This document shows positions 2,342 through 22,420 of a stretch of DNA of 64,000 nt, one piece after another; position 1 is the stretch's first letter; every line of letters begins with the position of its first letter. The notes beneath the pieces were generated by a model, which was given only the letters and a program-made list of their open reading frames with translations, was not told where the DNA came from and ran no database searches. The DNA is taken from contig JAMPXC010000010.1 in the NCBI GenBank assembly GCA_023701385.1, positions 12,502-76,501 of the forward strand, in the 5' to 3' direction. This DNA is from Pseudobdellovibrio sp. (GTDB lineage Bacteria; Bdellovibrionota; Bdellovibrionia; Bdellovibrionales; Bdellovibrionaceae). A program made the position numbers and the translations under genes.

Positions 2342-5300
2342 CTATTTACAGAACGGCGCTGAAGGGTCTTTAGTGCATAAATAAAATTTAACAGATTGCA
2401 GCTCTTTAGACTGGGCTGCATTTTCTTCTTTAAGCTTCACATTTTCATCTTCTAGTTTTTGATTCAACGAGGCGATCTGACGAGCTTGGTTTACTTGTTC
2501 AGTTTGGAGCCCTAAAAATTCTTTATACAAATCTTTGATGGCATTGATCATCGCCCAAAAAATCGGTGTTGTATTCAGTGATAAAAAGCCATCTTTATCT
2601 TCTTTTACCGCTTCTGGAATTTGCTTTTGCACTTCTTGGGCAATTACACCCGTGTATTCTTCTGTCGAATTAATTCCTTTAGGATTGTTTTCTTTATAAC
2701 GGAATTTGATCATATTTAAATTCGTAATTTCGCGAAGTCCACGGTTGTAATCACTGGTAATATCTTTTAAGCGACGATCCGATGGCACAGTCCAACCCAC
2801 ATCACCACCGTTACGATACGGCGTTCCGGTAATGCGAAGATCACCACTAACATCCAGCGTGTAACCTGGAGTCGGTGTTCCTATACCGACGCGGCCTGTG
2901 TCGGTAATACGCATTCTTTCTGTTCCTGCATCTGTGTTTCCAGTTTTAGTATAAAAAGCAAAATTCGAAGTGGTGTTATTCACTGACCATAAACCAGCGG
3001 TATTAGTTCCACCATCAAAACTAAAAAATGTTCCACCGTAACTAGGTGCTGCCACACTGTGGGCCCCACCACCACGAATTAAAGCACTACCCGTAACATC
3101 AATATTATAAGCTGGAGTCGGCGTTCCAATCCCAACGTTACCATTTGATTTAACCGTAAGCCATTCAGTCCCATTTGCACCTGAGGTATCCAAACCTTGA
3201 CCTATTGATATTCTGTCTAAAGTATTTCCTGTAGATCCATGGGCCGTGAGACCACCTAGTTGACTTCCATCGTTCGAGAAAAATGCAAATTGTCTTTTCC
3301 ATACAGTCCATGTCGAGTCTGTACGGACACCTAAACCATAGGGATGAGATAGCGGTCGATCCGCGACTATATTTCCCGCGGTATGCAAAGTGTACGCTGG
3401 ACTTGACGTTCCAATACCGACATTACCGGAAGTATCTACTCTTATCCTTTCGAGCCCTGTGGTTCCCAAAGCTAAAAAGCCTCCCGAAGTTGATCCACCT
3501 CTGTAAAACTTAAGAAAACCGTTATTTTCATCTCCCTGAAAGCTGTGCACAAGCCCGAATGTCTGAACGATAGTTGGTTGCGTGTCCCACGATTTAACGA
3601 TGAGTTTATTGTTTTCATTACTTGTTGCTAAAATGGCAGCATCCGTATTTGCTCCGCTGTTAATTTCTAATCTAGCTGTTGGTGAAGATGTTCCTAAACC
3701 GACGTTTCCGCTTTCATTTCTAATTGTCATCACAGCAGTATCAGCACCAGCTGTTCTTCGTGAGATAGTCAATGGAACATTCCCACCTAAATTATCTCTT
3801 GTATCTATTTTCCAGCCATAATCATTATTCGATGAGGTTAATAAAAGATGATTGTCATTAAAGGCGCCTAGATGCAACTTCGCTCCTGGAGTCGTCGTTC
3901 CGATACCGACGTTTCCGGCATAGGTCGTTGTTAACACATCCGTTCCGGCTGTGACAGAACGAAGATGAAAATCGTTTAGTGAAGAATAAAATCCGTACTG
4001 GTTTCCGCCCGTTGTTGATCTAATCACTAATCCATCGGCAATGGTTCCACCAGAACCTTCAATGTGTAATTTAGCCGAAGGAGTCGTTGTTGCGATACCA
4101 ACATTACCTCCGTAGGCTTGAAGTGTGAGGTTTCTGATATTGCTGACGCCAGTTTCTGTCGATTGCAACCACGTGACCTTGTTACCACCGGTATCGGTTC
4201 CTACACCCACATTAAGGGCCATTAAAGAACTGGAATTCGCAATTTGGAACTGACCAGTTTGGGTCGTGAAACTAGTAGAACCTTTCAAGGCCAATAAGTG
4301 TGCGGGGCTTGTCGTACCGATTCCGACGTTGCCTGAACTATCGATACGCATTTTTTCTGAATTATCGACTTCAAAAGCTATGCGTGATGATGCATTGACA
4401 TTACCCTCATCAGCTTCAAGAACTAAATTACCACCAGAATCAGTATGCACTAGAGCATATTTTCCGGATGCCTCTTCCATTCGGGCACCAGCATTATTGC
4501 CATAAACATGTAACAAACTTCCAGGCGATGATGTCCCAATACCGACATTTCCGCCATTTGGTGCTAATAAAATATTTCCTTTTGTCGCGTGTGTCGTTGA
4601 ATCTAATGTCAGTGATCCGCCCGACACAATGGACCCCGCAATATACGGAGAAATCATTCCCGATGTGGCGGTGACCGATACCCCTTGGATAGTTCCGCCG
4701 GCGTTGATGTTACCCGCAACACCTAAGCCACCGTTAACAATTAAAGCTCCGGTGTTTGACGAAGTTGACGCCACCGTTGATGAAACAATTACGCTATTTG
4801 CTCCGTTATTTGGAGTCATGCTAATGTTTCCTGAAGAATTAATATTCGAAGCATTATCTATTGTTCCGGCACTTGAACCAGTTGCAATTGCTCTTCGCGT
4901 ATTTGTACTGTCTGTTAAATAAAAGTTTGTACCGTCATACTCCATCGTGCCTGATTGTGGTGATGAGAGTAACGTGCCTGAGGTAAATTTTAACGGCGCC
5001 ACTGATGCTGTTCCAGAAACTAAATGAAGTTTCGCAGTCGGTGCTATGATACCTATACCGACGTTACCATTTTTTAAAATGATCATTGCATTTGAACGGG
5101 ATCCGCTCGACATACCGTTACCGACAACAAGTAATGGGTCAGTTGCGATCCATGAATTTTTGTTTGCAGTAATTATGGTATTGTAGGTACCAAGTGTAGT
5201 AGAACGATAGGAATAAGCCAACGAACCAGCACCAATAGCCACTGCATAATCAGCATCAGTATCCGCATTTGAACCAAGCGCGATAGAATGGCTTCCTGAA

Positions 5301-7429
5301 GCGCTACTGCTGCCTGCTGCAAAACTATAATAGCCAGATGAATAACTACTATCAAAGGCTGTCGAGTGAGTTCCAGTGGCCTGACCCTCGTTGAAGGCGA
5401 CTGCGCCATACTCGGTAGCCTGAGCGTAGTGGCCGATCGCGATGGAATGATCTGCCGTCGCATATCCACCGTGCATGGCAATTGATCCATAGCCTGAAGC
5501 GACCGGCGAATTCGCACCGTAAGCAAAACTTCCTTCACCAATACTTGCATCATCCCATTCAGTTGAGCCAGCGTAACCGCCGCGAAATGCCGCTTTCTTC
5601 GCATAGAAGAACATTCTTGTGCCCGCACCAGAAACACTGAGGTTATTTCCGACTCCCCACGCTCCGCCATTAACAAGTAAATCACCTTCGACATGAAGTT
5701 TTTGAATGGGATTACTTGTTCCGATGCCTACGTTGCCAGAGGTGTAATAAATATCACTTCCGGTTGTCGTCCACTGCGTCGGTGTTACAGATCCACTCGC
5801 TGCTGGAGTGTACCCCAACGCACCGGTCACATCACCTGCCGTGATTTGTGATCCACTAGTGACACGGCCTTTACTATCGACTGTGACCTTCGTGTAAGTG
5901 CCAGCGGTCACACCTGAGTTTGATAAAATAATTGTATTTGATGCCGCAGCAATTGTGGCGTCACCAGTAAAACTTGGTAATCGCGCAATCGCCAATGTTC
6001 CTGTCGCCGAGGCACTTCCTAAATCAATCGTTGAAGCTGTTGCTAATGTACCTAAGCCTAAGTTAGTACGTGCCGTTGCGATATTTGTTAAATCAGAAAG
6101 GTTATTTGCTTTCTGCACGTAAGTTCCACTGACCGAATTATCTGCCGGAACATAACCTAATACCTGCGCGATACTCGCCGCACTTGATGTGATTTTATTA
6201 CTAAAGCTCACGTAATCTACATTAGAAATTAGTCCTGCAGTTACAGCTCCCGTTGAAGCGAGCGGAATATTTAAAGTATGCACTCCGTTTGAAGTATTAA
6301 AATTCGGGGCGGTGCCCCCCGCCCCGATAGCAAATGACTGTGTGCCGCTGGTTGAGCCGTTGAAATTTGTAATACCCGCGCCAGATACGCCGAATGCTTG
6401 CCATGAGGTTCCGTTACAGTATTCGATATTACTTGCGTTGTATCTTAAAGTTCCCGCTAGAGCTGGTGCACATGTCGTGCTTTCAGTACCGATACGCACA
6501 CCGCCTGATACATCAAGCGCAGTCACCGGCGTAGTTATACCAATACCAACATTTCCTGAAGAGTAAGAAATCGCTGTTCCCGAAGTTATCCATTGCGACG
6601 AGGTCATCGCAGCAAATGAAGCCGCTACCGAATTTTGTAGACTTGTCACTGTCGACGATACTGAAAATACAGTTGAACTTACACTTGAAGCATAACTTGA
6701 AACTCCGGCCACAGTCGAAGACACTGTTGAAAGATCAGCTGTTACTGCAGAAACACTTGCTCCATCAGCCGGAGTATAACCAAGAGCGGTAATCACCGTC
6801 GATGATGTGACCGATCCCCCGCTTCCGCCAACAGCTACGCAAGAAAAACTAGAACCGTTGTAGTGAACAGCTTCACTCGCCGCACAAGTTGGAATCGCAC
6901 TTATTTGCACAAAAGCAATGTCAGTTTTTCCGTTCAGTGTTAACGAATCATTGGCATACATTGCGTAAGGTACCGCATTGATATTCATCGCTGGCAACGT
7001 TTGCCAACCGCTGCCGTCATGAAATTGCATGACAATTTTTCTGATATCTGTAGACGTCGGAGAATAACTTGCAGGACCACCGGTATCGCAAGATAAGCTT
7101 GGAGTGATATTCGAAAAAACTTGTTCAAATGTTGTTGCCGATGCCGGATAAGTTTTAACTCCTGAGCCCAATGAAAAAGAAATTAATCCGCTTGTGCTGG
7201 ACATATTCACTGAAGAATAAGTTTCCGAATAAAGAATACAGCTTCCCGCAGGATCTAGAATGGTAAATTTAAAATTCACACTTGAAGCTTCAAGCGGATA
7301 ACCATCGGGCTTAATAATTTTAGCTTGATACGTAGTGCGTGATGGACCTGCAAAGGCTGATGTCGCGTTTACAAAAATAAACACAAAAAACAAAATGACA
7401 TGAATCAGCCAGTTACGTGCGGTTTTCAC
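2342..7429 (-). CDS. MAT-type phage-tail-fibre-like trimeric adhesin 1, with YadA-like head repeats and C-terminal peptidase S74 chaperone
   Basis: Signal peptide, then N-domain RTTYQAKI...GWQTLPAMxINAVPYAMYA; many GNVGIGTxxP repeats; SxAxG beta-roll repeats (GSFAYG...SIALG); SDRRLK S74 motif, coiled coil and YLCxKDPSAPFC tail. Start re-assigned to GTG 7429; the ORF track opens at 7489. Confidence 0.88.
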   Translation of the reverse strand: MKTARNWLIHVILFFVFIFVNATSAFAGPSRTTYQAKIIKPDGYPLEASSVNFKFTILDPAGSCILYSETYSSVNMSSTSGLISFSLGSGVKTYPASATTFEQVFSNITPSLSCDTGGPASYSPTSTDIRKIVMQFHDGSGWQTLPAMNINAVPYAMYANDSLTLNGKTDIAFVQISAIPTCAASEAVHYNGSSFSCVAVGGSGGSVTSSTVITALGYTPADGASVSAVTADLSTVSSTVAGVSSYASSVSSTVFSVSSTVTSLQNSVAASFAAMTSSQWITSGTAISYSSGNVGIGITTPVTALDVSGGVRIGTESTTCAPALAGTLRYNASNIEYCNGTSWQAFGVSGAGITNFNGSTSGTQSFAIGAGGTAPNFNTSNGVHTLNIPLASTGAVTAGLISNVDYVSFSNKITSSAASIAQVLGYVPADNSVSGTYVQKANNLSDLTNIATARTNLGLGTLATASTIDLGSASATGTLAIARLPSFTGDATIAAASNTIILSNSGVTAGTYTKVTVDSKGRVTSGSQITAGDVTGALGYTPAASGSVTPTQWTTTGSDIYYTSGNVGIGTSNPIQKLHVEGDLLVNGGAWGVGNNLSVSGAGTRMFFYAKKAAFRGGYAGSTEWDDASIGEGSFAYGANSPVASGYGSIAMHGGYATADHSIAIGHYAQATEYGAVAFNEGQATGTHSTAFDSSYSSGYYSFAAGSSSASGSHSIALGSNADTDADYAVAIGAGSLAYSYRSTTLGTYNTIITANKNSWIATDPLLVVGNGMSSGSRSNAMIILKNGNVGIGIIAPTAKLHLVSGTASVAPLKFTSGTLLSSPQSGTMEYDGTNFYLTDSTNTRRAIATGSSAGTIDNASNINSSGNISMTPNNGANSVIVSSTVASTSSNTGALIVNGGLGVAGNINAGGTIQGVSVTATSGMISPYIAGSIVSGGSLTLDSTTHATKGNILLAPNGGNVGIGTSSPGSLLHVYGNNAGARMEEASGKYALVHTDSGGNLVLEADEGNVNASSRIAFEVDNSEKMRIDSSGNVGIGTTSPAHLLALKGSTSFTTQTGQFQIANSSSLMALNVGVGTDTGGNKVTWLQSTETGVSNIRNLTLQAYGGNVGIATTTPSAKLHIEGSGGTIADGLVIRSTTGGNQYGFYSSLNDFHLRSVTAGTDVLTTTYAGNVGIGTTTPGAKLHLGAFNDNHLLLTSSNNDYGWKIDTRDNLGGNVPLTISRRTAGADTAVMTIRNESGNVGLGTSSPTARLEINSGANTDAAILATSNENNKLIVKSWDTQPTIVQTFGLVHSFQGDENNGFLKFYRGGSTSGGFLALGTTGLERIRVDTSGNVGIGTSSPAYTLHTAGNIVADRPLSHPYGLGVRTDSTWTVWKRQFAFFSNDGSQLGGLTAHGSTGNTLDRISIGQGLDTSGANGTEWLTVKSNGNVGIGTPTPAYNIDVTGSALIRGGGAHSVAAPSYGGTFFSFDGGTNTAGLWSVNNTTSNFAFYTKTGNTDAGTERMRITDTGRVGIGTPTPGYTLDVSGDLRITGTPYRNGGDVGWTVPSDRRLKDITSDYNRGLREITNLNMIKFRYKENNPKGINSTEEYTGVIAQEVQKQIPEAVKEDKDGFLSLNTTPIFWAMINAIKDLYKEFLGLQTEQVNQARQIASLNQKLEDENVKLKEENAAQSKELQSVKFYLCTKDPSAPFCK
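5763..6532. repeat. Copy 1 of a ~770 bp direct repeat shared by fibre genes 1 and 3
   Basis: Colinear with 16651-17420 at a constant offset of 10888; 6075-6217 is identical to 16963-17105 over 143 bp, checked by eye. Confidence 0.92.
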
Positions 7430-7436
7430 AGGTAAC

Positions 7437-7444
7437 TTATCGGT
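7437..7444 (-). promoter_or_regulatory. sigma28/FliA-like -10 box (ACCGATAA) of fibre gene 1
   Basis: 7/8 match to GCCGATAA, exactly 7 nt before in-frame GTG 7429; no SD; -35 is weak (TCGAG). Confidence 0.6.
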
Positions 7445-7661
7445 ATTATTCTGTTTTTTCTCGAATGCTCCGGTGCAATTCAATGACATTGAGAGCGCAG
7501 CTGAATTGTCTTAATGTTTCAATTTAAGACAAATGAGTTCAAACACTTATAAAAATCAGCAATATGTTGCCGAATACCGCGACTGTAAACCGAAAACACG
7601 ATGACGAAATGAATTACTGACAGCCAGTTGGGTTGTAGCGCGGCAGAAATAACAACTGCAC

Positions 7662-10600
7662 TTAGTTACAAAAAGGTGCTGAAGTATTTTGGTTACACAG
7701 GTAGGCTTTGATAGTTTCGTTTTGCTGCTTAAGCTGTAAATTTTCAGATTCAAGTTTTTCTGTTTTTGTTTTTAGCGCTTGTACTTCAGCACTGTCAGCT
7801 TTTGAAGCTATCTGTCGGTCTTGTTTTTCAAAACGATTCACGACGAACGCATACAATTCTTTAACCGCCTGGATAACTGGAGCCACTAAAACAGCGTAAT
7901 CTACTTTTTTGTAACCTGTATTTTTATCGTTCATCACAGCTGTCGGAAATACTTTTTCCACATCTTGCGCTATGACCCCGATATCGTGACGGCCATGGCT
8001 TAATGATTTTTCATTCCAATCAAATTCTACACCTTTTAAAGAATTAATTTTTTCTAAAGCATACGGAATTGGTTTAACATTTTCTTTTAACCGGGCATCA
8101 GATGAACAGTTCGTACCACCTGCACCATTTCCCAAAGTACAATCAGTTGAGCCTTGTACACGTAAGTTACCTACGACATGAAGTTTTTCATTCGGAGTTG
8201 TTATACCGATACCGACATAACCGGCCGAGCTAATATGTAGTGATTCAGGCACTGCTCCACTCCAAGTCACTGTTTGGTTCGCTGTTCCTATAGCTGTATT
8301 TCCTGTAAAAAACGAGATTGTTCCATCGCCTAATAAGATTCTGGACGCACCTCTTGCTCCGAGATATTTGTATCCAGTACCATCTGAAGCAATCACTGCA
8401 CCACCCACCAGATTCGTTAATCCTTGCCCCTGGCCGGTGTCGATGGTCATTCCTGAACCGGTGGTTCCGTTGATTGAATTTTCTACTTTAAAGCCCGGTA
8501 GAACATTCGGATTTGCCGTCGTATTATCGATATGCAATTTTGCAGTGGCACTGACCGTTGCAATACCTACATTACCATTGTACTTAATAGATAGCGCGGT
8601 GGTTTCTGTACCGGAGTCTTTAGCAACAAAATCGTAAGAGACATTACCCCAAGCTTGATGGTTTCTTTTGAGTGCAAGATTCCAGGTATCGGGGTGAGTT
8701 GAAAATCCCCAACGCTGAAGAGTGTTCACTCCTGTATTTTCATCTGTTACACCGCAAGTTCCAGTCGTGTCGCCGGAAGGACAGTTATATTTAGCCATAA
8801 CATCAAGACCTTTTTCGGCAGCTGCAAATCCATAAACTGAAACACGTGCCGAAGGATTTGTCGTTCCGACTCCGAAGTTACCATTCGCTGTCATTCTTGC
8901 TCTTTCTGTCACGACACCATTAGCATCATTGGTTTTGAACAACAGAGGTTCTGTGCCATCGTCTCCCCAGATAAGTGTGGCATATTTTTCGTTGCTGCCA
9001 TTATTTTCTAAACCGATATAAAAGTTGTCGCTATCGTCTCCCATCATCACGCCCATAGTTCGACTTACCGACCAACCAGTTACCACACCTGAAAAAGGTG
9101 AACCGATCTGCAATTTGGTCACGGGAGTATTCGTTCCGATACCGACATTTCCACTCGGAGCAATTTTTAATTTAGAGATTCCCCAAGCTGTGCCATCGGT
9201 TGATTGGTAAAAATCTAAACTTCCGGGGTTCGTCGAATCGCCATTACCTTGATGAATCAGCCAGTGATTACCACCACCGATAGTTCCACTGGTTGAACTA
9301 AAACGAATTGTCGGTTTATCACCTTGTAGAGTGACTGCGCCGTAAGAGCCGTTCCAATCACCGAGCACGTTTAATTTACCATTCGGAGAAACTGTTCCAA
9401 TTCCAACATTACCATTCGAGGTAATTCGCATTTGTTCAGTGAGTGTTGTTCCTGAAGCCGTTGTAAATTCGATAAAACTATTATGAACACTGGAGCTTTG
9501 ATTACTTTCAGCTATAACCCTAATGTGGCCAACCTCATTAAAAGATGTGCCATCATAGGCGCCGCCGATAAGATTCAGCAACGGATCTCCGGCTTGCACC
9601 GCTGTCGGCGCGCCACTGTTACCGCGGGCCGCTCTTCCCCAAATTTGTGCCGCATTTCCACCGACTGAATAATTGTCAATGACAAGATTTCTTGGCATAG
9701 CTGTCGATTCATCAACGATGTGTAATTTTGCCGAAGGACTCTGCGTGCCGATACCGACGTTGCCTGAGCCCTTGATGATCATTTTTGTTGAAACAGCGCC
9801 AGCCCCTGCATTAAAAAATTCTAAATCACCGGAATAGGTTGCGTGATTATGATCGGTAACTCGAGTGGCTACTCCACCCGCTTCTTGAAAAGCCGAAGCG
9901 CCAACACCAGTCGTATCAGATCTCATCGAAAAAACAATCGAAGCTCCCGTAGTCTGCGCATTATAAAGGGCTGTGTTGGTGCTTCCAGAATCTTCACGCA
10001 CGACAAGCCTTCTTTGAGGTGCGTTTGTGCCGATACCGACATTGCCTGTAGCCCGATTAATAGAAAAGTTAGTCGCTAAATATGCTCCCGCATCGTTGTA
10101 TGAATTTAAATAAAAATTTGATCCCGCATTACTTCCTGATTCAGATGCATCGTTTACACCCATAATCCATCGTGAAACACCACTCGTCATAAAAGACACT
10201 TCTCGATGCGTTCCTGCAGCACCATCAATACCAAGAGCATTTTCATTGGCGCCACCTTTATCAAAGACCGTTAAATCAGCTGTTGGATTTGCTGTGCCTA
10301 TACCGACGTTACCATTATTCTGTACTCTGAAAAGAGTATTTATTGTTGCTCCGCTATCAGGAGTTGTTCTGACCCAAAATGCTGCATTTGAAGATGGAGC
10401 ACCTTCTGATGTTTGAATAATTGCACCATATGGCGTTGTAGAGTTTGCAGTAATTGCATAGCCTGTTCCAATATTACTTCCGATCGATAGAACACTATTA
10501 GGAGTATTCGTTCCGATACCCACGTATCCGCTATTCGGTGCCAATAAGATATTTCCCTTATTTGCGTGAGTTGTCGAATCAAGAACTAGTGATCCGCCTG

Positions 10601-12692: not shown

Positions 12693-12699
12693 AAACAAC

Positions 12700-12707
12700 T
12701 CATCGGT
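12700..12707 (-). promoter_or_regulatory. sigma28-like -10 box (ACCGATGA) of fibre gene 2
   Basis: 7 nt before ATG 12692; TAGA lies 16 nt upstream; no SD. Confidence 0.5.
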
Positions 12708-12735: not shown

Positions 12736-12751
12736 TACGCTCCGGAGCGTA
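12736..12751. repeat. Perfect 16-bp palindrome TACGCTCCGGAGCGTA between fibre genes 3 and 2
   Basis: Self-complementary by inspection; it overlaps an alternative stem TCCGGAG-TACG-CTCCGGA. Confidence 0.85.
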
Positions 12752-12758
12752 AAAAGTC

Positions 12759-15700: not shown

Positions 15701-18311
15701 CGGCTCCGCCGTTCGGATACATCGTGATATTTTCCGACGAATTTGAAATGAGTGAAGCATTGTCGTAAGTGCCAGCACCCGCAGTTGATGTGATTGTTCG
15801 GCGAGTGCTTGTGCCGTCGGTGAAATATAAATTATTTCCATCATACTCGAGAGCTCCAGTTTGCGGAGCTGTTAGCAATGTTCCAGAAGTTAATTTGAAT
15901 GAGGCTGTTGCACTTGTTCCTGATTTTAAATGTAAAACTGCAGATGGAGTTGTTAAACCGATACCAACGTTGCCGTCATTTTTTATAACCATGCGAGTTT
16001 GTTCAGTCGATGAACCGTCAGGCGAAGTTGTGAATTCAATTCGGCCAGGTATATCACTTACGCCAGTGGCGCCATCAACAACCATTTTTATACGCGCCGC
16101 TGTCTGATAGGCCGAACCATCATAGCCTCTAGCCCATAAAGTCGTGATCTCATCGTTTGACGAAACAAGCGTTGGTGCCGCTGTAGAACCACGGGATTTT
16201 TGAAAAATTTGATGAGCACCGAAACTATCACTCGAATTTCTTTCGACGGTCACAATTCCATTGCTACCGGCAATGTGAAGAGTTGTCGCCGGTGCACTTG
16301 TTCCGATCCCGACATTACCACCGGCAAGAATCGTCATTCGCGCCGCCGCATTTGTACCAAGAACAAGAGGAGCCGCAGTTGAAGTTCCCATGACTAATCC
16401 CGCACCAGAACCGTACATGGCCATAAGATTGTTGTTGGATAAACCAAAAGTTGTTCCCGCACGCGAACCACCGTAAATACCAAAATCTAAAAATTTTCCT
16501 GTCTCATTTGAAAATTGATCAAACGCGTACCCGGTCGCCGAATCAGTTTCAACTTTAGCATAAACGCCAGAACCTTTGACATGTAAAGGCTCTGAAGGAC
16601 TTGTTGTTCCAATTCCCACTTTGCCGGCATCATAATAAATATCACTTGCAGTTGTCGTCCACTGCGTCGGTGTTACAGATCCACTCGCTGCTGGAGTGTA
16701 ACCTAAAGCTGCTGTGACATCACCTGATACTAATTGTGCACCGCTAGTTACGCGGCCTTTGTCATCTACTGTGACTTTCGGGTAAGTACCCGCTGTTACG
16801 CCAGAGTTTGCTAAAATAATTGTATTTGACGCCGCAGCGATTGTGGCATCACCGATAAAACTTGGAAGTCGCGCGATGGCTAAGGTTCCTGTGGCCGAGG
16901 CACCGCCCAGATCAATGGTTGAAGCTGTTGCCAATGTGCCTAACCCTAAATTAGTTCTCGCTGTTGCGATATTTGTTAAATCAGAAAGGTTATTTGCTTT
17001 CTGCACGTAAGTTCCACTGACCGAATTATCTGCCGGAACATAACCTAATACCTGCGCGATACTCGCCGCACTTGATGTGATTTTATTACTAAAGCTCACG
17101 TAATCGGCGTTGGAAAGTAAACCCGCTGTCACAGTTCCTGTTGAAGCTAACGGAATATTTAAAGTATGCACTCCGTTTGAAGTATTAAAATTCGGGGCGG
17201 TGCCCCCCGCCCCAATGGCAAACGACTGTGTGCCGCTGGTTGAGCCGTTGAAATTTGTAATACCCGCGCCAGATACGCCGAATGCTTGCCATGAAGTGCC
17301 GTTACAGTATTCGATATTACTTGCGTTGTATCTTAATGTTCCCGCTAGAGCTGGTGCACATGTCGTGCTTTCAGTACCGATACGTACTCCGCCTGATACA
17401 TCAAGCGCAGTCACCGGCGTTGTAGTGCCGATGCCAACGTTACCCGTGTTATAAAAAATATTGGTTCCCGATGTCGTCCACTGTGAACTTGTTATCGTCG
17501 CAAAGCTTGCTGCTACTGAATTTTGTAAACTTGTGACTGAGCCTGATAGAGAGGCCACTGTTGATGAAACAGAAAATACTGTCGAAGAAACTGAAGAAAT
17601 ATTCGTCGTCGCTGAACTTAACGAATTTGACAGCGTGGTAAAGCTGACCGCATCTGCTGGCGTGTAGCCTAAAGCTGTTACGACACTTCCTGAAGTGACC
17701 CCGCCACCTACGGTTAAACAGCTGAAACTTACGCCGTTAAAATGAATGGCTTCATTAGCTTGGCAGTTAAGCGCTGCCAGCGTTGAGTATTCAACAAATG
17801 ATGTATCTGATTTTCCGTTAAGTTGAATTGAGTTTTCAGATTTACCCGCATACATCGAGTAAGGAACAGCATTGATCGTCATCGCCGGTAATGTTTGCCA
17901 ACCGGTTCCATCGTTAAACTGCATGACAATTTTTCGACCATCATTTGACGTTGGTAAATACACACCCATTGTCTGACATGAAAATGAAGGCGTTGAATTA
18001 TCAAAAATCGCAGCAAACGTAGCAGCAGTTCCACTGGTTGGAAATGATCTAACGCCGGCGCCCAATGCAAAGGCCACCACTCCGCCGCTGTCATACATAT
18101 TCACGGCCGTGTAGTCTTCAATATAAACTATGCAAGAAGCTGCGGGATCTAAGATCGTAAATCTGAAATTCACTGACGAAGATTGCAAAGGTTGGCCGTC
18201 GGGCTTAATAATTTTAGCTTGATAAGTTGTGCGAAATGGCGCCGCAAAAGCCAATGCTTTTGCTAAAAAAACCATAGCAAAAATAACGATTCGAATAAAC
18301 GTCCAGTTCAC
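12759..18311 (-). CDS. MAT-type phage-tail-fibre-like adhesin 3 with S74 chaperone
   Basis: GTG start; signal peptide; same N-domain; GNVGIGT repeats; a ~115 aa globular insert (QWIKVGTW...SSWTS); CSSDARLKEN S74 motif. Confidence 0.88.
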   Translation of the reverse strand: MNWTFIRIVIFAMVFLAKALAFAAPFRTTYQAKIIKPDGQPLQSSSVNFRFTILDPAASCIVYIEDYTAVNMYDSGGVVAFALGAGVRSFPTSGTAATFAAIFDNSTPSFSCQTMGVYLPTSNDGRKIVMQFNDGTGWQTLPAMTINAVPYSMYAGKSENSIQLNGKSDTSFVEYSTLAALNCQANEAIHFNGVSFSCLTVGGGVTSGSVVTALGYTPADAVSFTTLSNSLSSATTNISSVSSTVFSVSSTVASLSGSVTSLQNSVAASFATITSSQWTTSGTNIFYNTGNVGIGTTTPVTALDVSGGVRIGTESTTCAPALAGTLRYNASNIEYCNGTSWQAFGVSGAGITNFNGSTSGTQSFAIGAGGTAPNFNTSNGVHTLNIPLASTGTVTAGLLSNADYVSFSNKITSSAASIAQVLGYVPADNSVSGTYVQKANNLSDLTNIATARTNLGLGTLATASTIDLGGASATGTLAIARLPSFIGDATIAAASNTIILANSGVTAGTYPKVTVDDKGRVTSGAQLVSGDVTAALGYTPAASGSVTPTQWTTTASDIYYDAGKVGIGTTSPSEPLHVKGSGVYAKVETDSATGYAFDQFSNETGKFLDFGIYGGSRAGTTFGLSNNNLMAMYGSGAGLVMGTSTAAPLVLGTNAAARMTILAGGNVGIGTSAPATTLHIAGSNGIVTVERNSSDSFGAHQIFQKSRGSTAAPTLVSSNDEITTLWARGYDGSAYQTAARIKMVVDGATGVSDIPGRIEFTTSPDGSSTEQTRMVIKNDGNVGIGLTTPSAVLHLKSGTSATASFKLTSGTLLTAPQTGALEYDGNNLYFTDGTSTRRTITSTAGAGTYDNASLISNSSENITMYPNGGAGSVVVSATTASTNSSTGALVVKGGLGVAGSINSGGTIQGVSVTATSGIISPYIAGSVSASGNLTLDSTTHATKGNIFLAPNGGNVGIGTATPGGPLEVVGGNTGTAYSSGEQTLVLRNNSSVIGARGAGIRFDNGSYTGGGAQIDFINSGTANEGHLSFGTRYSGTMSEKVRIQDNGNVGIGTTAPGYKLQVVGPAATTTSIFLAGITGVTNGFTINADASNNITYSMLTGTGTQGFYQSGSGNIGIGTTTPAAKLDVNGSMIIRGGVANPTLGDSSSTAQWIKVGTWTAPQQGRNIVIRFEGGQGFNAQMPQMGWSEVRIRTSNATSVDANGFCASAVFNRYGQSQMIQQVKIVSNAAGCAATAFDVYVYVPVFTGVGNFFSVDTDASSSWTSTLNFGVSDPGAASASVYVATAELMVNNNLLVSSGSVGIGTTSPTVPLHIQNNGTGSGLVNGLFVQPNQPTNSSNYIKLGHDISTTYNAADIAFTYIGNNSNQNRLDFGFQGVAPVMAIRADGNVGIGTASPARKLHIKDPYPYIAFEDTENASGSVGTITYNQDGNFYFDADNPNTGTNAGFSFRANGGTKYLMTVLNSGGVGIGTTTPAAKLDVSNSNTLISNGTGANTYFRNSQSTDGDYLAIGWTNENVWGLSSADSGTYRNLSLQPFGGNVGVGTQYPDRLFEVAGTIEARDTNTGGATDGAIRIKGNSQGSPYGTIQFVNPAGNTQWAFIAGTATGNVGIGMITPGSKLDVKGDDATNTFRTTDAAGQFRTRIDQFYDFYMTNAAGTDTVIIKSSGSMGLGTVTPSEKLHVVGNLRVQGSTDCTLGNGAGGTNCSSDARLKENIKPIPYALEKINSLKGVEFDWNEKSLSYGRHDIGVIAQDVEKVFPTAVMNDKNTGYKKVDYAILVAPIIQAVKELYNLVVKEKEQNVSQDRQIASIEAKVQQLETENAAKERKIQSLEQENEAIKSRLEKIEKALNSK
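16651..17420. repeat. Copy 2 of the ~770 bp direct repeat shared by fibre genes 1 and 3
   Basis: See 5763-6532. Confidence 0.92.
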
Positions 18312-18318
18312 ATATTTC

Positions 18319-18326
18319 TTATCGGT
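18319..18326 (-). promoter_or_regulatory. sigma28-like -10 box (ACCGATAA) of fibre gene 3
   Basis: 7 nt before GTG 18311; no SD. Confidence 0.6.
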
Positions 18327-18391
18327 TCAAAGTGAAGTTTTCACCACTGCTCCGGGGCACTTAAGCAAAAAAATTGTGTTTCAAAATGAGA

Positions 18392-21300
18392 TTAATGGCA
18401 TGAAAATGGCGTTGCACCGACTTGGCCTTGCATATGCTCTAAACTCCAAACTGAACCATTCCAGTAAAGAGTGGCTTGCACCGTACCTTGATTACTAGCA
18501 GTACCTACAAGAGCATTAGCAGCATCCCGTAAATTTGTTCCCCACCCACGCCATTCAATTTCTGCAATGTAGCCTGTCGCATTTAGTTTTCCTAAAGTCA
18601 TTCGGTAAGTTCCATTCCAAGTGGTATCATAACCATCAAACAAATAGCTTGCGTGTGGACCCGCTGCACAGCCCACAGTGTCTTTTAATCGCGGAGCAAT
18701 TCCACGCCACGTGTAAGTTTCATCTTGATGAGCATCGATGTATGTTGAAGTTAAAAATGCCGGCATCGAAACTGTTCTGGTTGTTCCATCAAATGTCAGA
18801 ACCAGTTGTCCGTAGTTTGGTTGTTTAATACCACCGTTCACTTGTAATTTTGAAGTTGGCGTTGTTACACCGATACCCACATTACCTGTTGTTGGAGCCA
18901 GCGCTACTTGATCGTACTGAACTTTCACCATATCAACATTTGATCCACCTGATTGGGCATTTGTACGTAAAACGATTTGATCATTCACATTATCAAAAAT
19001 TTCAATCACTAAACGACTGACTTCAGAATTCACATCGTGTTCACCAAAAATCGAACCCGCATCGGTGCTCGCAATCCCTGCTGTTCCTGATTGCGTGCTG
19101 GCGTTAAACATCATTCTGCCTGTTGGCACATTTACATCACCACCAGCCACTTCTAACCGTGTTGTAGGGTTTGATGTGCCGATACCGACTGAACCACTGT
19201 TTGCATTTAAAATTGTATTGTTACCAACTTTATTAATGTAGAGCGGACGTGTTCCATGTGATTGAATCCACGCATATTCGGCACTGGCTGCTGTATCATC
19301 AGTACCTAATAGTAAAGCCGCCACACCTCCGCCATTAATCGCAATAGTTCCACTTGTGTAAGACGATGGGCTTCCATTCGGACCGCGCACATCTAATTTA
19401 GTGACTGGAGAAGTTGTTCCAATACCAATGTTACCTGAAGGTTTAAAAGTCATCATCGTGGTACTGCTTGTACCCAGTGTTAAATCAGCATTTAAATAAT
19501 TGTAAACACCAAAACCATTTGTACTGCCACCATCACCAAAGCCAACATACCCAGTATCACTTCCGCCATGGCGAAACATCAAAAGTGGATGTGCATTTGC
19601 ATTCGTTGTTTCAAGCTTCATCACGGAATTCCAACCAGCCACACCACCCGTGGCTACGTGTAACGGTGCGGTTGGAGTTGAATTACCGATACCGACATTA
19701 CCATTCTGTGTAATGCGCAAGCGTTCTGTCGCATCAGCGGCAGAATCATTTGTGTAAATTCTAACATCAGCACCAAGCTGACTTACACCAGGTGCGCTGG
19801 TGACATAAGAAGAAATTCTGGCTCCGCGAATATAAGAACCATCACTGCTTAACCCACGAAATCCGATATGACCGATCGTATCGCCATTGATGACAGGTGT
19901 ACTGGCTCCACGATCTTTTTGTAAGTAAATATCAGGCGATGACGGGGAAGAAACTGATCGTGTTAAAGTTAAAGCGGCCACCGAACCCTTAATTTCTAAA
20001 TCTGTAGCCGGTGAAGTCGTCCCGATTCCCACTTTACCATCACCTTTAATAATCATTTTTGTTGAGATCAATGGAGACGAAGCCACAGCTTCAAATGTGC
20101 CACTTGGCGCGTCAGGCGATGCGTACGTATCGAAAACTATATTCCCCGCAGCCATACGGATGCGATCAGGCCCTGAAGTATTATCAGAATCATTGCCTTT
20201 GAAAAGCAACAACTCCGAACTTTCCGTCGGAGCATAAACACGTTCGCCGATGTAAGTGTGGTTGTAAGATCCCGCCCCATCGCCGGTAGTTCCTCTGAAG
20301 GCGATGTAATTCGAATCAGAATTACCGATGCGCATGTTACCTAAGACATCTAATTTTTCACCCGGTGTAGCTGTGCCCACACCAAGGCTTCCGCTGGTTG
20401 TCAGATTTCCGTTCGCTGTGAGGTTACCTTGCACTGACATCGGACTTGAAACAACCACTGACCCTGCCGGATTTAAAGTTAAATTACTTGTTGAATTAAT
20501 TTGTGAAGTGTTATCAATCGAACCTTGTGAAGAACCCGTCGCAATAATGCGGCGTTGATTAGCGCCATCAGTAAGATAAAAATTAGAACCGTCATATTCC
20601 ATTGTTCCTGATTGCGGTGAAGTCAGTAAAGTTCCTGAGGTAAATTTTAATGAGGCTGTGGCTGATGTTCCCGCAGCTAAAGATAATAGAGCTGTTGGAC
20701 GAAGACCGAGACCAAACATCGCCCCGTTCATCTCTAAAGTATCGTCACCCGACAGAATAAAACGCGCATCAAAGTCGGTACTGCTGTCATTTGCAAAATC
20801 AATGTAAGGGCTACCGGCATTATCATATTCGCGCAGCTCAATGAAAGCGTTACCATCATTACCCATGGAGACAGAGCCATTATTCGCAGCCCCTGCTCGA
20901 ACTGTCCCAAGCACATCAAGAGCATGGACTGGATTAGATACGCCGATACCGACATCTCCCCCACTATAAAAAATGTCTGTTCCGTTTGTTGTCCACTGTG
21001 TGGCACTTGTCGCATTTGCCGGAGTATAACCTAACGTCGCGATGATTGCCGCACTGGTAGCCTGCTGTTTATTATTAAATGTATTCCAATCACTTGCTGA
21101 TAAATAACCATTTGTAGCCGACGTTGCTTGTGAAATCGAAAGTGTTGGCGTAGCGCCACCTGTTGATGACAGCGGTGCTGTCGCACTGACACTCGTCACG
21201 CTTCCCGTAGATGGACTAATCCATGATAAACTTCCAGAGCCATCTGTTGATAGGACTTGGCCAGATGTTCCACTGGTGGTTGGTAAATTTAAAGTATAAT

Positions 21301-22420
21301 TGGCCGCCAAACTTGTTGGCGCCTGCAAACGAATATTAAAGCTTGTGCTAGGTTTATAGATATCAACATAATTCACTTTTGCGGCGTTCGCGTAAATATC
21401 ATTAACCGTGATATTTCCTGAAGAGTTTCTTTTTACGATCGTGTCCACCGTCGCAGAAGTTGTTGCGGCTAATGTTTCATCAACGCTTGTTGACAATTGT
21501 GCCGCTGTTTTACCACCAACACTTTGAACAACGTTTGCCGAAACAGTTCCGCTCACATCACCTGATAGTTGCGACGCTTGAATTTGTGAATTAACCGCAG
21601 TTCCGCTGACCGGTGCATAACCTAATGTGTTTATAATCTGCGTGCTGCTCGCAGAAAGTTTTGATTTGAACTCGGCGTAATCAACTGATGTCAAATAACC
21701 ATCACTCGACATTGATGCGACATTAATTGAAATCACCGGCGCACTCGCAGTTCCGGCGGTTGTAAGTACAGTTCCGCTGGTGGTCACACTTGAAATACCG
21801 CTGCTGGATACACCCACAGCGATACAACTAAAATTCGCGCCATTAAATTTAATCGCCTCGTTGGCTTGGCAATTCAATGTCGCTAAAGTTGAATATTCAA
21901 CAAATGAAGTATCTGCTTTTCCATTGAGAGATTGTGAGTTTTGCGCTTTTGCAGAATACATCGCATAAGGCACAGAGTTAATAGCCATCGCTGGCAGCGT
22001 TTGCCAACCATTACCTTCGTTAAACTGCATCACGATTTTTCTATTATCAGTTGAAATTGGATTATACACACCCGGTGCTTGGCACACAAATGATGGTATC
22101 GAGTTATCAAAGACTGAAGCAAACGTCACCGGGCCACTAGCAGGATATGTTCTTGTTCCCATCCCTAAACTAAACGAAGTGAAACCACCACTTCCGATCA
22201 TATTCACGGCAGCATAATCTTCTATATATAGAACGCAGGATGAAGATGGATCTAAAACCGTAAACCGAAAATTAACACTGACTGATTCAAGTGGATATCC
22301 ATCGGGTTTATAGATTTTAGCTTGATAGGTTGTCCGCCCGTTGATTGCAAATGCAGATGTAGAAAGCAATAGTATGCTTCCAAGCGCGAAATAATAAACG
22401 TGCCTCAACCACTTATTCAC
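18392..22420 (-). CDS. MAT-type fibre adhesin 4, no S74 chaperone, unique C-terminal tip domain
   Basis: Same N-domain and GNVGIGT repeats. No SDxRLK motif; it ends in ~140 aa of unique sequence (...WSLEHMQGQVGATPFSCH). Start re-assigned to GTG 22420; the ORF track opens at 22513. Confidence 0.85.
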   Translation of the reverse strand: MNKWLRHVYYFALGSILLLSTSAFAINGRTTYQAKIYKPDGYPLESVSVNFRFTVLDPSSSCVLYIEDYAAVNMIGSGGFTSFSLGMGTRTYPASGPVTFASVFDNSIPSFVCQAPGVYNPISTDNRKIVMQFNEGNGWQTLPAMAINSVPYAMYSAKAQNSQSLNGKADTSFVEYSTLATLNCQANEAIKFNGANFSCIAVGVSSSGISSVTTSGTVLTTAGTASAPVISINVASMSSDGYLTSVDYAEFKSKLSASSTQIINTLGYAPVSGTAVNSQIQASQLSGDVSGTVSANVVQSVGGKTAAQLSTSVDETLAATTSATVDTIVKRNSSGNITVNDIYANAAKVNYVDIYKPSTSFNIRLQAPTSLAANYTLNLPTTSGTSGQVLSTDGSGSLSWISPSTGSVTSVSATAPLSSTGGATPTLSISQATSATNGYLSASDWNTFNNKQQATSAAIIATLGYTPANATSATQWTTNGTDIFYSGGDVGIGVSNPVHALDVLGTVRAGAANNGSVSMGNDGNAFIELREYDNAGSPYIDFANDSSTDFDARFILSGDDTLEMNGAMFGLGLRPTALLSLAAGTSATASLKFTSGTLLTSPQSGTMEYDGSNFYLTDGANQRRIIATGSSQGSIDNTSQINSTSNLTLNPAGSVVVSSPMSVQGNLTANGNLTTSGSLGVGTATPGEKLDVLGNMRIGNSDSNYIAFRGTTGDGAGSYNHTYIGERVYAPTESSELLLFKGNDSDNTSGPDRIRMAAGNIVFDTYASPDAPSGTFEAVASSPLISTKMIIKGDGKVGIGTTSPATDLEIKGSVAALTLTRSVSSPSSPDIYLQKDRGASTPVINGDTIGHIGFRGLSSDGSYIRGARISSYVTSAPGVSQLGADVRIYTNDSAADATERLRITQNGNVGIGNSTPTAPLHVATGGVAGWNSVMKLETTNANAHPLLMFRHGGSDTGYVGFGDGGSTNGFGVYNYLNADLTLGTSSTTMMTFKPSGNIGIGTTSPVTKLDVRGPNGSPSSYTSGTIAINGGGVAALLLGTDDTAASAEYAWIQSHGTRPLYINKVGNNTILNANSGSVGIGTSNPTTRLEVAGGDVNVPTGRMMFNASTQSGTAGIASTDAGSIFGEHDVNSEVSRLVIEIFDNVNDQIVLRTNAQSGGSNVDMVKVQYDQVALAPTTGNVGIGVTTPTSKLQVNGGIKQPNYGQLVLTFDGTTRTVSMPAFLTSTYIDAHQDETYTWRGIAPRLKDTVGCAAGPHASYLFDGYDTTWNGTYRMTLGKLNATGYIAEIEWRGWGTNLRDAANALVGTASNQGTVQATLYWNGSVWSLEHMQGQVGATPFSCH

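What the first reader, a model, noticed from the sequence alone, without database searches (positions are those of the whole stretch)
2342..22420. Four-gene fibre array is a B-A-B-A mosaic with independently assorted stalk, head and chaperone modules
Seen: all four share the N-terminal domain and a central module (KFTSGTLLxSPQSGTMEYDG...DNASNINS). Genes 1 and 3 share stalk A (TALDVSGGVRIG...KANNLSDL...VTPTQWTT); genes 2 and 4 share stalk B (SVTTSGTVLTTAGTAS...PSTSFNIRLQAPTSL). Genes 2 and 3, which have different stalks, share the terminal tip and S74 (EKLHVVGNLRVQGSTDCTLGNGAGGTNCSSDARLKEN). Gene 1 has a different S74 and gene 4 has none. Genes 1 and 3 also share an upstream TGCxCCGGAGCA element at the same 21-nt distance from the -10 box. 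Established: Bdellovibrio MAT proteins are chimeric phage-fibre-like prey-recognition adhesins. Inference: a (B-A) pair duplicated and then exchanged modules, giving a local prey-range diversification cassette.
Basis: partly seen in the sequence, partly recalled or inferred. Interest (0 to 1): 0.7.

Follow-up and report, generated by a model that had tools for sequence, protein, structure and literature searches.

The report
Mosaic predator fibre-adhesin gene array
Four neighbouring genes of a predatory Pseudobdellovibrio bacterium encode long phage-like surface fibres of the known MAT family. They have swapped whole sections with each other and with about 20 sister genes, so this is a good new example of a known kind of prey-adhesin diversification, not a new system.

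Summary
Window 2342-22420 (minus strand) holds four intact tandem MAT-family fibre genes. All four match NCBIfam Bdello_MAT_N. g1-g3 end in Peptidase_S74. g4 ends in a tip homologous to the solved Bd1334 tip.

The mosaic is real:
- Stalk A is shared by g1 and g3 (86% nt, dS about 0.45, with 97-100% identical patches including a 143-nt exact match).
- A last-rung plus S74 cassette is shared by g2 and g3 (91% nt, dS about 0.55).
- N-domains, stalk B and the central module are saturated (dS above 1.2).
- Module trees conflict. g1 and g3 are sisters (100/100) for stalk A but fall in different major N-domain clades.

The proposed single duplication of a B-A pair is not supported. The B-B and A-A divergences differ three-fold. 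Stalk B of g2 is no closer to g4 than to unlinked paralogues. Only g4 has a positional orthologue in every relative compared.

The same locus holds 1, 2, 3 and 4 MAT genes in four related species. One HCB154 gene combines the g3-type 5' end with the g1-type 3' end.

Exchange is genome-wide (about 25 paralogues). The cleanest junctions lie on the conserved GNVGIGT motif.

The MAT family and its tip swapping are already published, so this is a new member of a known kind.

The parts
2342..7429 (-). g1: MAT fibre gene. Order of parts: clade-I N-domain, stalk A, YadA-head-like insert, central module, unique distal beta-helix, S74 of clade alpha. The longest ORF starts at ATG 7489; the likely start is GTG 7429.
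7662..12692 (-). g2: MAT fibre gene. Order of parts: clade-II N-domain, stalk B, central module, about 730 aa of unique distal region, last rung plus S74 shared with g3.
12759..18311 (-). g3: MAT fibre gene. Order of parts: clade-II N-domain (orthologous to HCB154 Ha, Hb and to Ua), stalk A, central module, unique distal region, S74 shared with g2, coiled-coil tail of its own.
18392..22420 (-). g4: MAT fibre gene without S74. It has stalk B and a Bd1334-type tip. It is the only member with a positional orthologue in all four related genomes compared.
5735..6565 (-). Stalk A of g1 (aa 309-585), bounded by GNVGIG motifs at aa 312 and 585.
16623..17453 (-). Stalk A of g3 (aa 287-563).
6075..6217 (-). 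143-nt stretch of g1 that is exactly identical to g3 16963-17105. It is a recent conversion tract inside stalk A.
16963..17105 (-). Partner in g3 of the 143-nt exact match.
11499..12086 (-). Stalk B of g2 (aa 205-400).
21221..21802 (-). Stalk B of g4 (aa 238-431, numbered from ATG 22513).
7851..8222 (-). g2 last beta-helix rung plus S74 chaperone (aa 1493-1616), shared with g3. The catalytic SDARLK motif is at aa 1533.
12948..13319 (-). g3 copy of the same cassette (aa 1665-1788). SDARLK is at aa 1705.
2603..2782 (-). g1 Peptidase_S74 domain (SDRRLK at aa 1570). It belongs to a different S74 clade and is orthologous to the HCB154 Ha S74.
18398..18898 (-). g4 terminal beta-sandwich tip, homologous to the Bd1334 tip (PDB 8ON4/8OML, E=1e-31). 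Both Cys residues and two of the three Trp-cage residues are kept.
3122..3427 (-). g1 cassette (aa 1355-1456) that runs exactly from one GNVGIGT to the next. It is 96.4% nt identical to a MAT fragment on contig C10.
4535..5062 (-). Central module of g1. Counterparts: g2 10512-11048, g3 15438-15971, g4 (partial) 20495-20677.
7436..7443 (-). Sigma28-type -10 box CCGATAAG, 6 nt before the g1 GTG. The same arrangement occurs at 12699-12706 (g2), 18318-18325 (g3) and 22427-22434 (g4).
7466..7477 (-). Palindrome TGCACCGGAGCA upstream of g1. Counterparts: 18348-18359 (g3) and 12736-12751 (g2, 16-bp variant).

Best explanation
The interval is a tandem array of four separately promoted genes. They encode mosaic adhesive trimer (MAT) fibres of a Pseudobdellovibrio, a genus of bacterial predators.

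Each protein has, in order: a Sec signal peptide; the family's N-domain, thought to be the cell-proximal anchor; a stalk built from a small library of reusable cassettes (stalk A or B, then a central module); a long gene-specific distal beta-helix; and a terminus. The terminus is either an S74 self-cleaving chaperone (g1-g3) or a Bd1334-type beta-sandwich tip (g4).

The B-A-B-A pattern did not arise by one pair duplication. It came from repeated homologous recombination or gene conversion among the roughly 25 MAT paralogues of the genome. The clearest junctions fall on the DNA that encodes the recurring GNVGIGTxxP motif, which keeps frame and beta-helix register.

g4 is the old resident of the locus. 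The other genes were added and rebuilt within the genus. The g1-g3 stalk A and g2-g3 S74 cassettes were copied at about the time this species split from strain HCB154, and short stalk-A tracts were converted again much more recently.

Shown here: family membership, module boundaries, unequal module ages, conflicting trees, and different gene counts and combinations in relatives.

Inferred: recombination at the motif as the mechanism, the order of events, expression in the attack phase from sigma28 promoters, and the role in binding prey.
For: Family:
- NF053851 Bdello_MAT_N scores 141-160 bits against a cut-off of 60 in all four genes.
- S74 is present in g1-g3.
- There are PDB sequence hits to chains named bd2133 and 'cell wall surface anchor family protein'; the MAT paper assigns these PDB codes to Bd1334, Bd2133, Bd3182 and Bd2439.

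Unequal module ages (dS):
- N-domains 1.6-3, stalk B 1.57, central module 1.2-1.5.
- Stalk A 0.43-0.49, with a core of 0.25.
- Tip/S74 0.52-0.59.
- Flanking genes against HCB154 0.39-0.70.
- Within stalk A there are 97-100% identical windows and a 143-nt exact match inside a region that is 86% identical overall.

Conflicting trees:
- Stalk A gives g1+g3 at 100/100 and tip/S74 gives g2+g3 at 100/100.
- The N-domain tree separates g1 from g2-g4 at 99/99. g4 groups with its orthologues (100/99) and g3 with Ha, Hb and Ua (100/100).
- The AU test rejects g1+g3 as an N-domain clade (p=0.0023).

Relatives:
- The locus between the ABC-3 and DUF1402 genes holds 1 MAT gene in LC001, 2 in an uncultured relative, 3 in HCB154 and 4 here.
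- HCB154 Ha combines a g3-type promoter and N-domain with the g1-type middle and tip/S74, plus a g2-like piece.
- Uc, the g4 orthologue, has lost stalk B.
- The g2 and g3 S74 cassettes are closer to each other (90.6% nt) than either is to Hb or Ua (80-85%).

Genome-wide exchange.

Junctions:
- The g1/C10 cassette runs exactly from one GNVGIGT to the next. The stalk A ends and the tip start also sit on motifs.
- 22% of high-identity segment ends lie within 15 nt of a motif, against 5.8% for random positions.
- Codons inside the motif are more uniform than the genes' own usage predicts: Val is GTC in 46-50% of motifs against 14-16% elsewhere, p about 1e-9, in two genomes.

Assortment: N-domain clade, stalk A presence and S74 clade show no association across 41 MAT genes of two genomes (Fisher p 1.0, 0.53, 0.41).
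Against: - When orthologues are added, the fairer AU tests are only borderline: g1 plus the g3 group p=0.054, and g2 plus the g4 group p=0.053. N-domain incongruence therefore rests mainly on branch support and on dS.
- About 60% of high-identity segment ends are not at motifs. Alignment ends are also somewhat drawn towards conserved motifs, so the motif-junction rule is a tendency and not a law.
- dS values above 1 are imprecise. Clear orthologues (g4 and Hc, N-domain plus stalk) give dS 1.1 against 0.5 for the flanks, so MAT genes may simply run faster and absolute dating is loose.
- Direction is not resolved: gain here or loss in relatives.
- The genome is a 96-contig draft and reads could not be inspected.
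- There is no expression or binding data.
Confidence: 0.8

Rival explanations
1. One reading: a local (B-A) gene pair was duplicated once in tandem, and the copies later exchanged heads and chaperones.
For: - The B-A-B-A order is real.
- g1 and g3 are each other's closest stalk A copies.
- A g2 plus g4-group N-domain clade is not firmly rejected (p=0.053).
Against: - B-B divergence (dS 1.57, 75% nt) is far older than A-A divergence (dS 0.45, 86-88% nt).
- Stalk B of g2 is equidistant from g4 and from the unlinked C10_3164 and C38.
- The g1 N-domain lies in the other major clade, next to C44.
- Relatives show 1, 2 and 3 genes with only g4 conserved, which fits stepwise change rather than a pair event.
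Confidence: 0.08
2. There was no exchange. The four genes diverged from one ancestor, and the modules differ only in the strength of purifying selection.
For: Shared modules are highly conserved at the protein level (dN 0.015-0.065).
Against: - Selection on the protein cannot lower synonymous divergence three- to six-fold, nor produce a 143-nt exact match.
- Module trees conflict.
- Orthologous loci carry other combinations of the same pieces.
Confidence: 0.02
3. The mosaic is an assembly artefact: a short-read assembler joined paralogous fibre genes at shared repeats.
For: - The genome is a draft of 96 contigs.
- Several contigs end inside MAT genes.
- Reads could not be checked.
Against: - The shared modules are 86-91% identical, not identical. 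The longest exact matches are 143 nt and 50 nt.
- Two direct repeats on one contig allow only one linear path through the assembly graph.
- The complete HCB154 chromosome and the LC001 contigs show the same kind of mosaic.
Confidence: 0.03
4. The pieces came mainly by horizontal transfer from other Pseudobdellovibrio strains or their phages, and not by recombination among resident paralogues.
For: - The distal regions of g2 and g3 have no close relative in 51 genomes of the genus, and the g2 distal region has none above 38% identity in 5.8 billion proteins.
- The proteins match PHROG tail-fibre families.
Against: - The recent exchange partners that can be identified are resident genes: g1-g3, g2-g3 and g1-C10.
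- GC content across the array (41-49%) shows no sharp foreign block.
- No integrase or other mobile-element ORF of 150 aa or more lies within the array.
Confidence: 0.07

Closest known systems
MAT (mosaic adhesive trimer) fibres of Bdellovibrio bacteriovorus HD100 (Caulton et al. 2024, PMC10769870), especially the Bd1334/Bd2133 pair
   Same: - Signal peptide followed by the conserved N-domain (NF053851).
- A long trimeric-fibre-type repeat with the V-G-x-G...P...L capping-loop motif.
- Both S74 and non-S74 subclasses are present.
- The g4 tip is homologous to the Bd1334 tip.
- That paper already infers evolutionary tip swapping from the 75% identical Bd1334 and Bd2133 fibres, which carry different tips.
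   Different: - The host genus, Pseudobdellovibrio, is different.
- The genes are larger (1342-1850 aa against about 1000 aa).
- Here four genes sit in tandem at a locus whose gene number varies from 1 to 4 between species.
- Stalk cassettes and S74 chaperones are exchanged as well, not only tips.
- Junctions can be placed on the capping-loop motif, and the events can be dated against flanking genes.
Distal tail-fibre loci of T-even phages, where recombination between short conserved motifs swaps adhesin segments (recalled from the literature, not re-read here)
   Same: - Fibre genes are mosaic.
- Segment ends lie at short conserved motifs.
- Exchange changes the receptor-binding parts while the proximal parts remain compatible.
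   Different: - These are chromosomal genes of a bacterium, present in about 25 copies.
- They carry a bacterial export signal and an anchor domain.
- There are no virion genes nearby.
Endosialidase / phage K1F and T5 tail-fibre S74 intramolecular chaperones (Pfam PF13884)
   Same: - A C-terminal domain with the Ser-Lys SDxxxK motif in g1-g3.
- It is expected to assist trimer folding and then cleave itself off.
   Different: - Here the chaperone cassette itself is shared between neighbouring genes whose fibre ends are otherwise unrelated.
- Sister S74 pairs within a genome are adjacent genes in all three cases seen.
FliA (sigma28) attack-phase promoters of B. bacteriovorus, TTAAG-N16-CCGATA (Karunker et al. 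2013, PMC3627812)
   Same: - CCGATAA or CCGATGA lies upstream of all four genes.
- g4 also has TTAAA at N16.
- That paper lists cell-surface anchor genes among the FliA targets.
   Different: - The -10 box lies only 6-7 nt before a GTG or ATG start and there is no Shine-Dalgarno sequence, which suggests leaderless mRNAs.
- g1-g3 lack a good -35 box and instead have a palindrome further upstream.

Membership tests
MAT (mosaic adhesive trimer) superfamily | Signal peptide followed at once by the conserved beta-rich N-terminal domain of about 130 aa | tested here: met
   NCBIfam NF053851 Bdello_MAT_N scores 141-160 bits against a cut-off of 60 in all four genes. Hydrophobic leaders ending in xFA precede the domain.
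MAT (mosaic adhesive trimer) superfamily | Fibre body of beta-helix repeats carrying the capping-loop motif V-G-x-G..P...L | tested here: met
   There are 7-13 GNVGIG-type motifs per gene. There are PDB sequence hits to chains whose codes the MAT paper assigns to the Bd3182, Bd2133, Bd1334 and Bd2439 fibre parts, E 1e-6 to 1e-13.
MAT (mosaic adhesive trimer) superfamily | C-terminus is either an S74 domain with SDxxxK or an alternative adhesive tip | tested here: met
   S74 is present with SDRRLK in g1 and SDARLK in g2 and g3. g4 has a Bd1334-type tip, E=1e-31.
MAT (mosaic adhesive trimer) superfamily | Forms an intertwined trimer displayed on the predator surface and binds prey surface molecules | not testable with these tools
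   Only single-chain structure prediction is on offer, and there are no expression or binding data.
Peptidase_S74 intramolecular chaperone autoprotease | Pfam PF13884 match above the gathering score, with a catalytic Ser and a Lys five residues downstream | tested here: met
   Scores are 42-69 bits against a cut-off of 22. The motifs lie at aa 1570, 1533 and 1705. Self-cleavage itself was not tested.
FliA/sigma28 attack-phase promoter (TTAAG-N16-CCGATA) | Both boxes present with N16 spacing upstream of the gene | tested here: inconclusive
   g4 has TTAAA-N16-CCGATA. g1-g3 have the -10 box only (consensus). 13 of the 20 genome-wide CCGAYRAG-N6-RTG sites are MAT gene starts. No transcript data were available.
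Trimeric autotransporter adhesin head (YadA_head) | Repeated YadA-head motifs above the Pfam cut-off, together with a C-terminal membrane anchor | tested here: not met
   g1 aa 600-800 scores 25.3 bits against a cut-off of 25, and no autotransporter anchor is present. It is a borrowed module, and g1 is not a member of this family.

The most novel reading that the evidence does not exclude
The DNA that encodes the recurring GNVGIGT motif may be a selected, in-frame recombination signal. Under this reading the roughly 25 MAT genes work as a cassette-shuffling system: they produce new fibre combinations, and expand or contract arrays, often enough to matter within populations. This would be a bacterial-predator counterpart of phage tail-fibre motif recombination or pilin minicassettes. 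The codon uniformity inside the motif, the exact motif-to-motif cassettes and the 1-to-4 gene series at one locus fit this reading but do not prove it.
Probability: 0.2. Interest if true: 0.75.

Novelty: new member of a known kind. Interest (0 to 1): 0.45.

Why it matters
MAT fibres are the leading candidates for how Bdellovibrio-like predators recognise many kinds of prey. How the repertoire changes is not known.

This locus gives a dated, stepwise picture. One conserved anchor gene is present throughout. Neighbours are added and rebuilt within a genus. Stalk and chaperone cassettes move as well as tips, and the junctions sit at a structural motif that keeps the fibre in register.

That suggests where engineered fibre swaps in laboratory predators are most likely to fold, namely from one motif to the next. 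It also gives a concrete place to look for variation in prey range between strains.

It does not reveal a new type of system.

Tried and rejected
- Exact-protein look-up of g3 in public assemblies: nothing on record.
- Search for closer relatives of the g2 distal region in 5.8 billion proteins: nothing above 38% identity. Nothing useful turned up in 51 genomes of the genus for the g2 or g3 distal regions either.
- Rfam on 1-27000: no family matched.
- The palindrome as an RNA hairpin or terminator: the g1 and g3 copies do not fold better than shuffled sequence, so a DNA-level site is more likely.
- PDB sequence search for the central module and stalk B: no hits. Stalk A matches only a phage short tail fibre, through short repeats.
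- The complete single-contig genome G003 of the same genus, which has a more distant DUF1402 match (65%): no MAT gene at the locus, so it gave no information on synteny.
- A strict rule that every junction lies at a motif: rejected, because only about 40% of segment ends lie near motifs.
- A full step-by-step history of the array: several routes fit the data, so none is asserted.
- Structure prediction: not run. Single-chain models of intertwined trimers would add little.

Full report
**What is there.**
The interval holds four intact ORFs on the minus strand.

| Gene | Window coordinates | Length |
|---|---|---|
| g1 | 2342-7489 | 1715 aa |
| g2 | 7662-12698 | 1678 aa |
| g3 | 12759-18311 | 1850 aa |
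| g4 | 18392-22513 | 1373 aa |

Transcription runs g4, g3, g2, g1. All four match the curated NCBIfam model NF053851, 'Bdello_MAT_N, mosaic adhesive trimer family chimeric fiber protein', at 141-160 bits against a cut-off of 60. Pfam finds Peptidase_S74 in g1, g2 and g3 and nothing in g4. PHROGs gives only tail-fibre families.

The last 165 residues of g4 align at E=1e-31 with the solved tip of B. bacteriovorus Bd1334 (PDB 8ON4/8OML). The alignment keeps both cysteines and two of the three Trp-cage residues; the terminal Trp is His here. So g4 is a non-S74 MAT with a known tip type, not an unrecognised fold.

The window lies on contig C17 of a 96-contig, 3.18-Mb genome. Its closest named relatives are Pseudobdellovibrio sp. 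HCB154, an uncultured Pseudobdellovibrio, and the MAGs labelled Bdellovibrio sp. LC001 and LC033.

**Checking the observation.**
Every quoted motif is present. Gene-against-gene blastn gives the following:

| Module | Genes compared | nt identity |
|---|---|---|
| N-domain | all pairs | 66-72% |
| Stalk A | g1 aa 280-602 vs g3 258-580 | 85.6% over 970 nt |
| Stalk B (with N-domain) | g2 vs g4 | 72% |
| Central module | g1, g2, g3 in full; g4 first third only | 67-72% |
| Tip plus S74 | g2 aa 1504-1616 vs g3 1676-1788 | 90.6% over 340 nt |

The upstream TGCxCCGGAGCA element stands 21 nt before ACCGATAA in both g1 and g3.

Three refinements apply:
- The piece shared by g2 and g3 starts at the GNVGIG-type motif 40 residues before the catalytic serine (SDARLK). 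It runs through the S74 domain and about 28 residues beyond. After self-cleavage the two mature fibres would share only their last rung. The hundreds of residues in front of it are unrelated. What is shared is essentially a chaperone cassette, not a receptor-binding head.
- g2 also carries the palindrome, as a perfect 16-mer, 30 nt from its -10 box.
- Nearly all MAT genes of the genome carry CCGAYRAG, six bases, then GTG or ATG. 13 of the 20 such sites in the genome are MAT starts. This puts the likely starts at 7429 (g1), 12692 (g2, agreeing with the 1676-aa length under which the collection lists the window's own g2 protein), 18311 (g3) and 22420 (g4).

**Do the modules have different histories?**
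Yes, on three independent grounds.

(1) Synonymous divergence differs between modules:

| Comparison | dS |
|---|---|
| N-domain pairs | 1.6 to above 3 |
| Stalk B, g2-g4 | 1.57 |
| Central module | 1.2-1.5 |
| Stalk A, g1-g3 | 0.43-0.49 (core 0.25) |
| g2-g3 cassette | 0.52-0.59 |

Within stalk A there are windows of 97-100% nucleotide identity and a 143-nt exact match, inside a region that is 86% identical overall. Protein-level selection cannot produce that. It is the signature of recent gene conversion.

(2) Trees built with all MAT paralogues of this genome and of LC001 conflict. g1+g3 are sisters for stalk A and g2+g3 for tip/S74, both at 100/100. The N-domain tree splits into two major clades, with g1 in one and g2, g3, g4 in the other. 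The split scores 98/88 in the first tree and 99/99 with orthologues added.

An AU test rejects g1+g3 as an N-domain clade (p=0.0023) and g2+g4 as a clade (p=6e-5). The fairer tests include the orthologue groups, and they are only borderline (p=0.054 and 0.053). I therefore rely on branch support and on dS rather than on the AU test alone.

(3) Related genomes carry the same pieces in other combinations, as described below.

**The pair-duplication idea.**
Duplication of a B-A unit predicts equal ages for the two B copies and the two A copies. They differ about three-fold (dS 1.57 against 0.45).

Stalk B of g2 is 73-75% identical to g4, to the orthologues of g4 in two other species, and to the unlinked paralogues C10_3164 and C38 alike. 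g4 is closest to its own orthologues, at 78-81%.

A sliding-window map of the best paralogue shows the following:
- The g1 N-domain is closest to C44, C60 and C63 (80-93% aa).
- The g2 N-domain is closest to C63_1 and C38 (about 80%).
- g1 aa 1355-1456 is 96% nt identical to a MAT fragment on contig C10.
- g4 aa 691-840 matches C10_3164.

The mosaic is therefore genome-wide, among about 25 paralogues, and not a closed local system. Across 41 MAT genes of two genomes, N-domain clade, presence of a stalk-A-type module and S74 clade show no association (Fisher p 1.0, 0.53, 0.41). Stalk-A-type and central modules occur up to three times within one protein.

**The locus in relatives.**
The flanking genes are a ZnuA/ABC-3 transporter on one side and DUF1402 plus a GGDEF protein on the other. 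They identify the same locus in four genomes:

| Genome | MAT genes at the locus | Genes |
|---|---|---|
| LC001 | 1 | g4 orthologue only |
| Uncultured Pseudobdellovibrio | 2 | Uc, Ua |
| HCB154 | 3 | Hc, Hb, Ha |
| This genome | 4 | g4, g3, g2, g1 |

The HCB154 flanks are 88-98% aa identical to ours (dS 0.39-0.70).

g4 is the only gene with a positional orthologue throughout. Even this gene has been remodelled. Uc has lost stalk B, and Hc carries a C10_3164-type insert.

HCB154 Ha is built from these pieces:
- the g3-type promoter, including the same palindrome at the same 21-nt spacing;
- the g3-type N-domain;
- a shortened stalk-A-type piece closest to paralogue C12;
- the g1-type middle (YadA-like insert and central module, 77% nt);
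- a g2-like piece;
- the g1-type tip and S74 (89% nt, dS 0.53, which is the orthologous level).

Hb and Ua are orthologues of each other. They share with g3 the 5' end, two internal pieces and the S74 cassette. They share with g2 only the S74 cassette and its tail.

The g2 and g3 cassettes are closer to each other (90.6% nt) than either is to Hb or Ua (80-85%). They were therefore copied or homogenised after, or about when, the species split.

The distal regions of g2 and g3 have no close counterpart in 51 other genomes of the genus. The g2 distal region has none above 38% identity in 5.8 billion proteins.

**Where the junctions lie.**
A motif of 45 nt encoding GNVGIGTxxPxxxL recurs more than 30 times in the array. 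It corresponds to the capping-loop motif described for MAT and S74 fibres.

The g1/C10 cassette runs exactly from one GNVGIGT to the next. The 3' end of stalk A, the start of its near-identical part, and the start of the g2/g3 cassette all sit on such motifs. Among all high-identity segments between MAT genes of two genomes, the youngest ones (90% nt or more) end 3-33 nt from a motif.

Overall, 22% of segment ends lie within 15 nt of a motif, against 5.8% for random positions. About 60% do not lie near motifs, and alignment ends are somewhat biased towards conserved sites.

Codons inside the motif are more uniform than the genes' own usage predicts. Val is GTC in 46-50% of motifs against 14-16% elsewhere, and the fourth-position Gly is GGT in 71% against 45%. 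This holds in both genomes.

I read this as follows. The motif provides short homology and, above all, junctions that keep frame and fold register, so recombinants there survive. Whether the DNA motif is itself selected as a recombination signal remains open.

**Expression signals (side result).**
The -10 box matches the FliA consensus reported for attack-phase genes of B. bacteriovorus, TTAAG-N16-CCGATA. That paper lists cell-surface anchor genes among the targets.

g4 has both boxes (TTAAA-N16-CCGATA). g1-g3 have the -10 box only, and instead carry the palindrome 21-30 nt upstream. The palindrome occurs in no other MAT promoter of this genome. There are 32 GCNCCGGNGC sites in 3.18 Mb, and three of them lie in these three short spacers. 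It does not form a convincing RNA hairpin in g1 or g3. A binding site for a dimeric regulator is the most economical reading, but this was not tested.

The 6-7 nt between the -10 box and the start codon, with no Shine-Dalgarno sequence, suggests leaderless mRNAs.

**Comparison with what is known, and verdict.**
The family, its S74 and non-S74 subclasses, the invariant N-domain and evolutionary tip swapping are all published. A curated NCBIfam model for the family's N-domain exists.

This locus adds a tandem array whose size changes stepwise within a genus. It adds exchange of stalk and chaperone cassettes as well as tips. It also adds junctions at the capping-loop motif and a rough time scale. 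These are useful but incremental.

The prey-range role remains an inference from family membership.

Noticed in passing
window 7436-7443, 12699-12706, 18318-18325, 22427-22434 (minus strand), and MAT genes on other contigs: Nearly all MAT genes of the genome have a sigma28-type -10 box (CCGAYRAG), then 6 nt, then a GTG or ATG start, with no Shine-Dalgarno sequence. 13 of the 20 such sites in the genome are MAT starts. This suggests leaderless, FliA-dependent transcripts.
   Followed up: partly
window 7466-7477, 12736-12751, 18348-18359; HCB154 locus upstream of Ha (L120): The palindrome TGCnCCGGAGCA occurs only upstream of g1, g2 and g3, and of HCB154 Ha with the same 21-nt spacing. g3-type promoters (g3, Ha, Hb; Ua in a degenerate form, GGTGA-N8-TCGCT) also carry AGTGA-N8-TCACT over the -35 region. 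These are candidate operator sites of unknown regulators.
   Followed up: partly
window 6304-6327 (g1) and 17192-17215 (g3), minus strand: A GC-rich, terminator-like hairpin GGGGCGGGGGGCACCGCCCC followed by AATTTT (dG -21 kcal/mol, z -3.4) lies inside the stalk A coding sequence, at the edge of a 97% identical tract. Other stalk-A copies have only weak versions.
   Followed up: partly
window 5090-5692 (g1 aa 600-800): A YadA-head-like repeat block, of the trimeric autotransporter adhesin type, is inserted in a MAT fibre. The same block is present in HCB154 Ha and in an LC001 paralogue.
   Followed up: partly
G000 contig C17 7124-9271 (about 3.2 kb before the window) and C17 76805-80668 (after it); contigs C69, C18, C63: There are further MAT genes close to the window, plus other tandem arrays: three genes on C69, and two each on C18 and C63. 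LC001 has a six-gene array. In all three within-genome sister pairs of S74 domains, the two genes are neighbours.
   Followed up: partly
window 7662-10418 (g2 aa 760-1490): The distal 730 residues of g2 have no relative above 38% identity in 5.8 billion public proteins, although the repeat architecture itself is widespread (Kaiserbacteria, Margulisbacteria, Verrucomicrobia, Moorena).
   Followed up: yes
window 22662-23708: A DUF1402 protein is transcribed divergently from g4. It is 98% identical in HCB154 and marks the conserved edge of the array.
   Followed up: no
genus-wide: Only a handful of the 52 genomes of the genus give large numbers of MAT-like candidates (17-54 in the first-look counts). 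Most give fewer than 10, including the complete single-contig genome G003. Large MAT repertoires therefore look clade-specific within the genus.
   Followed up: no
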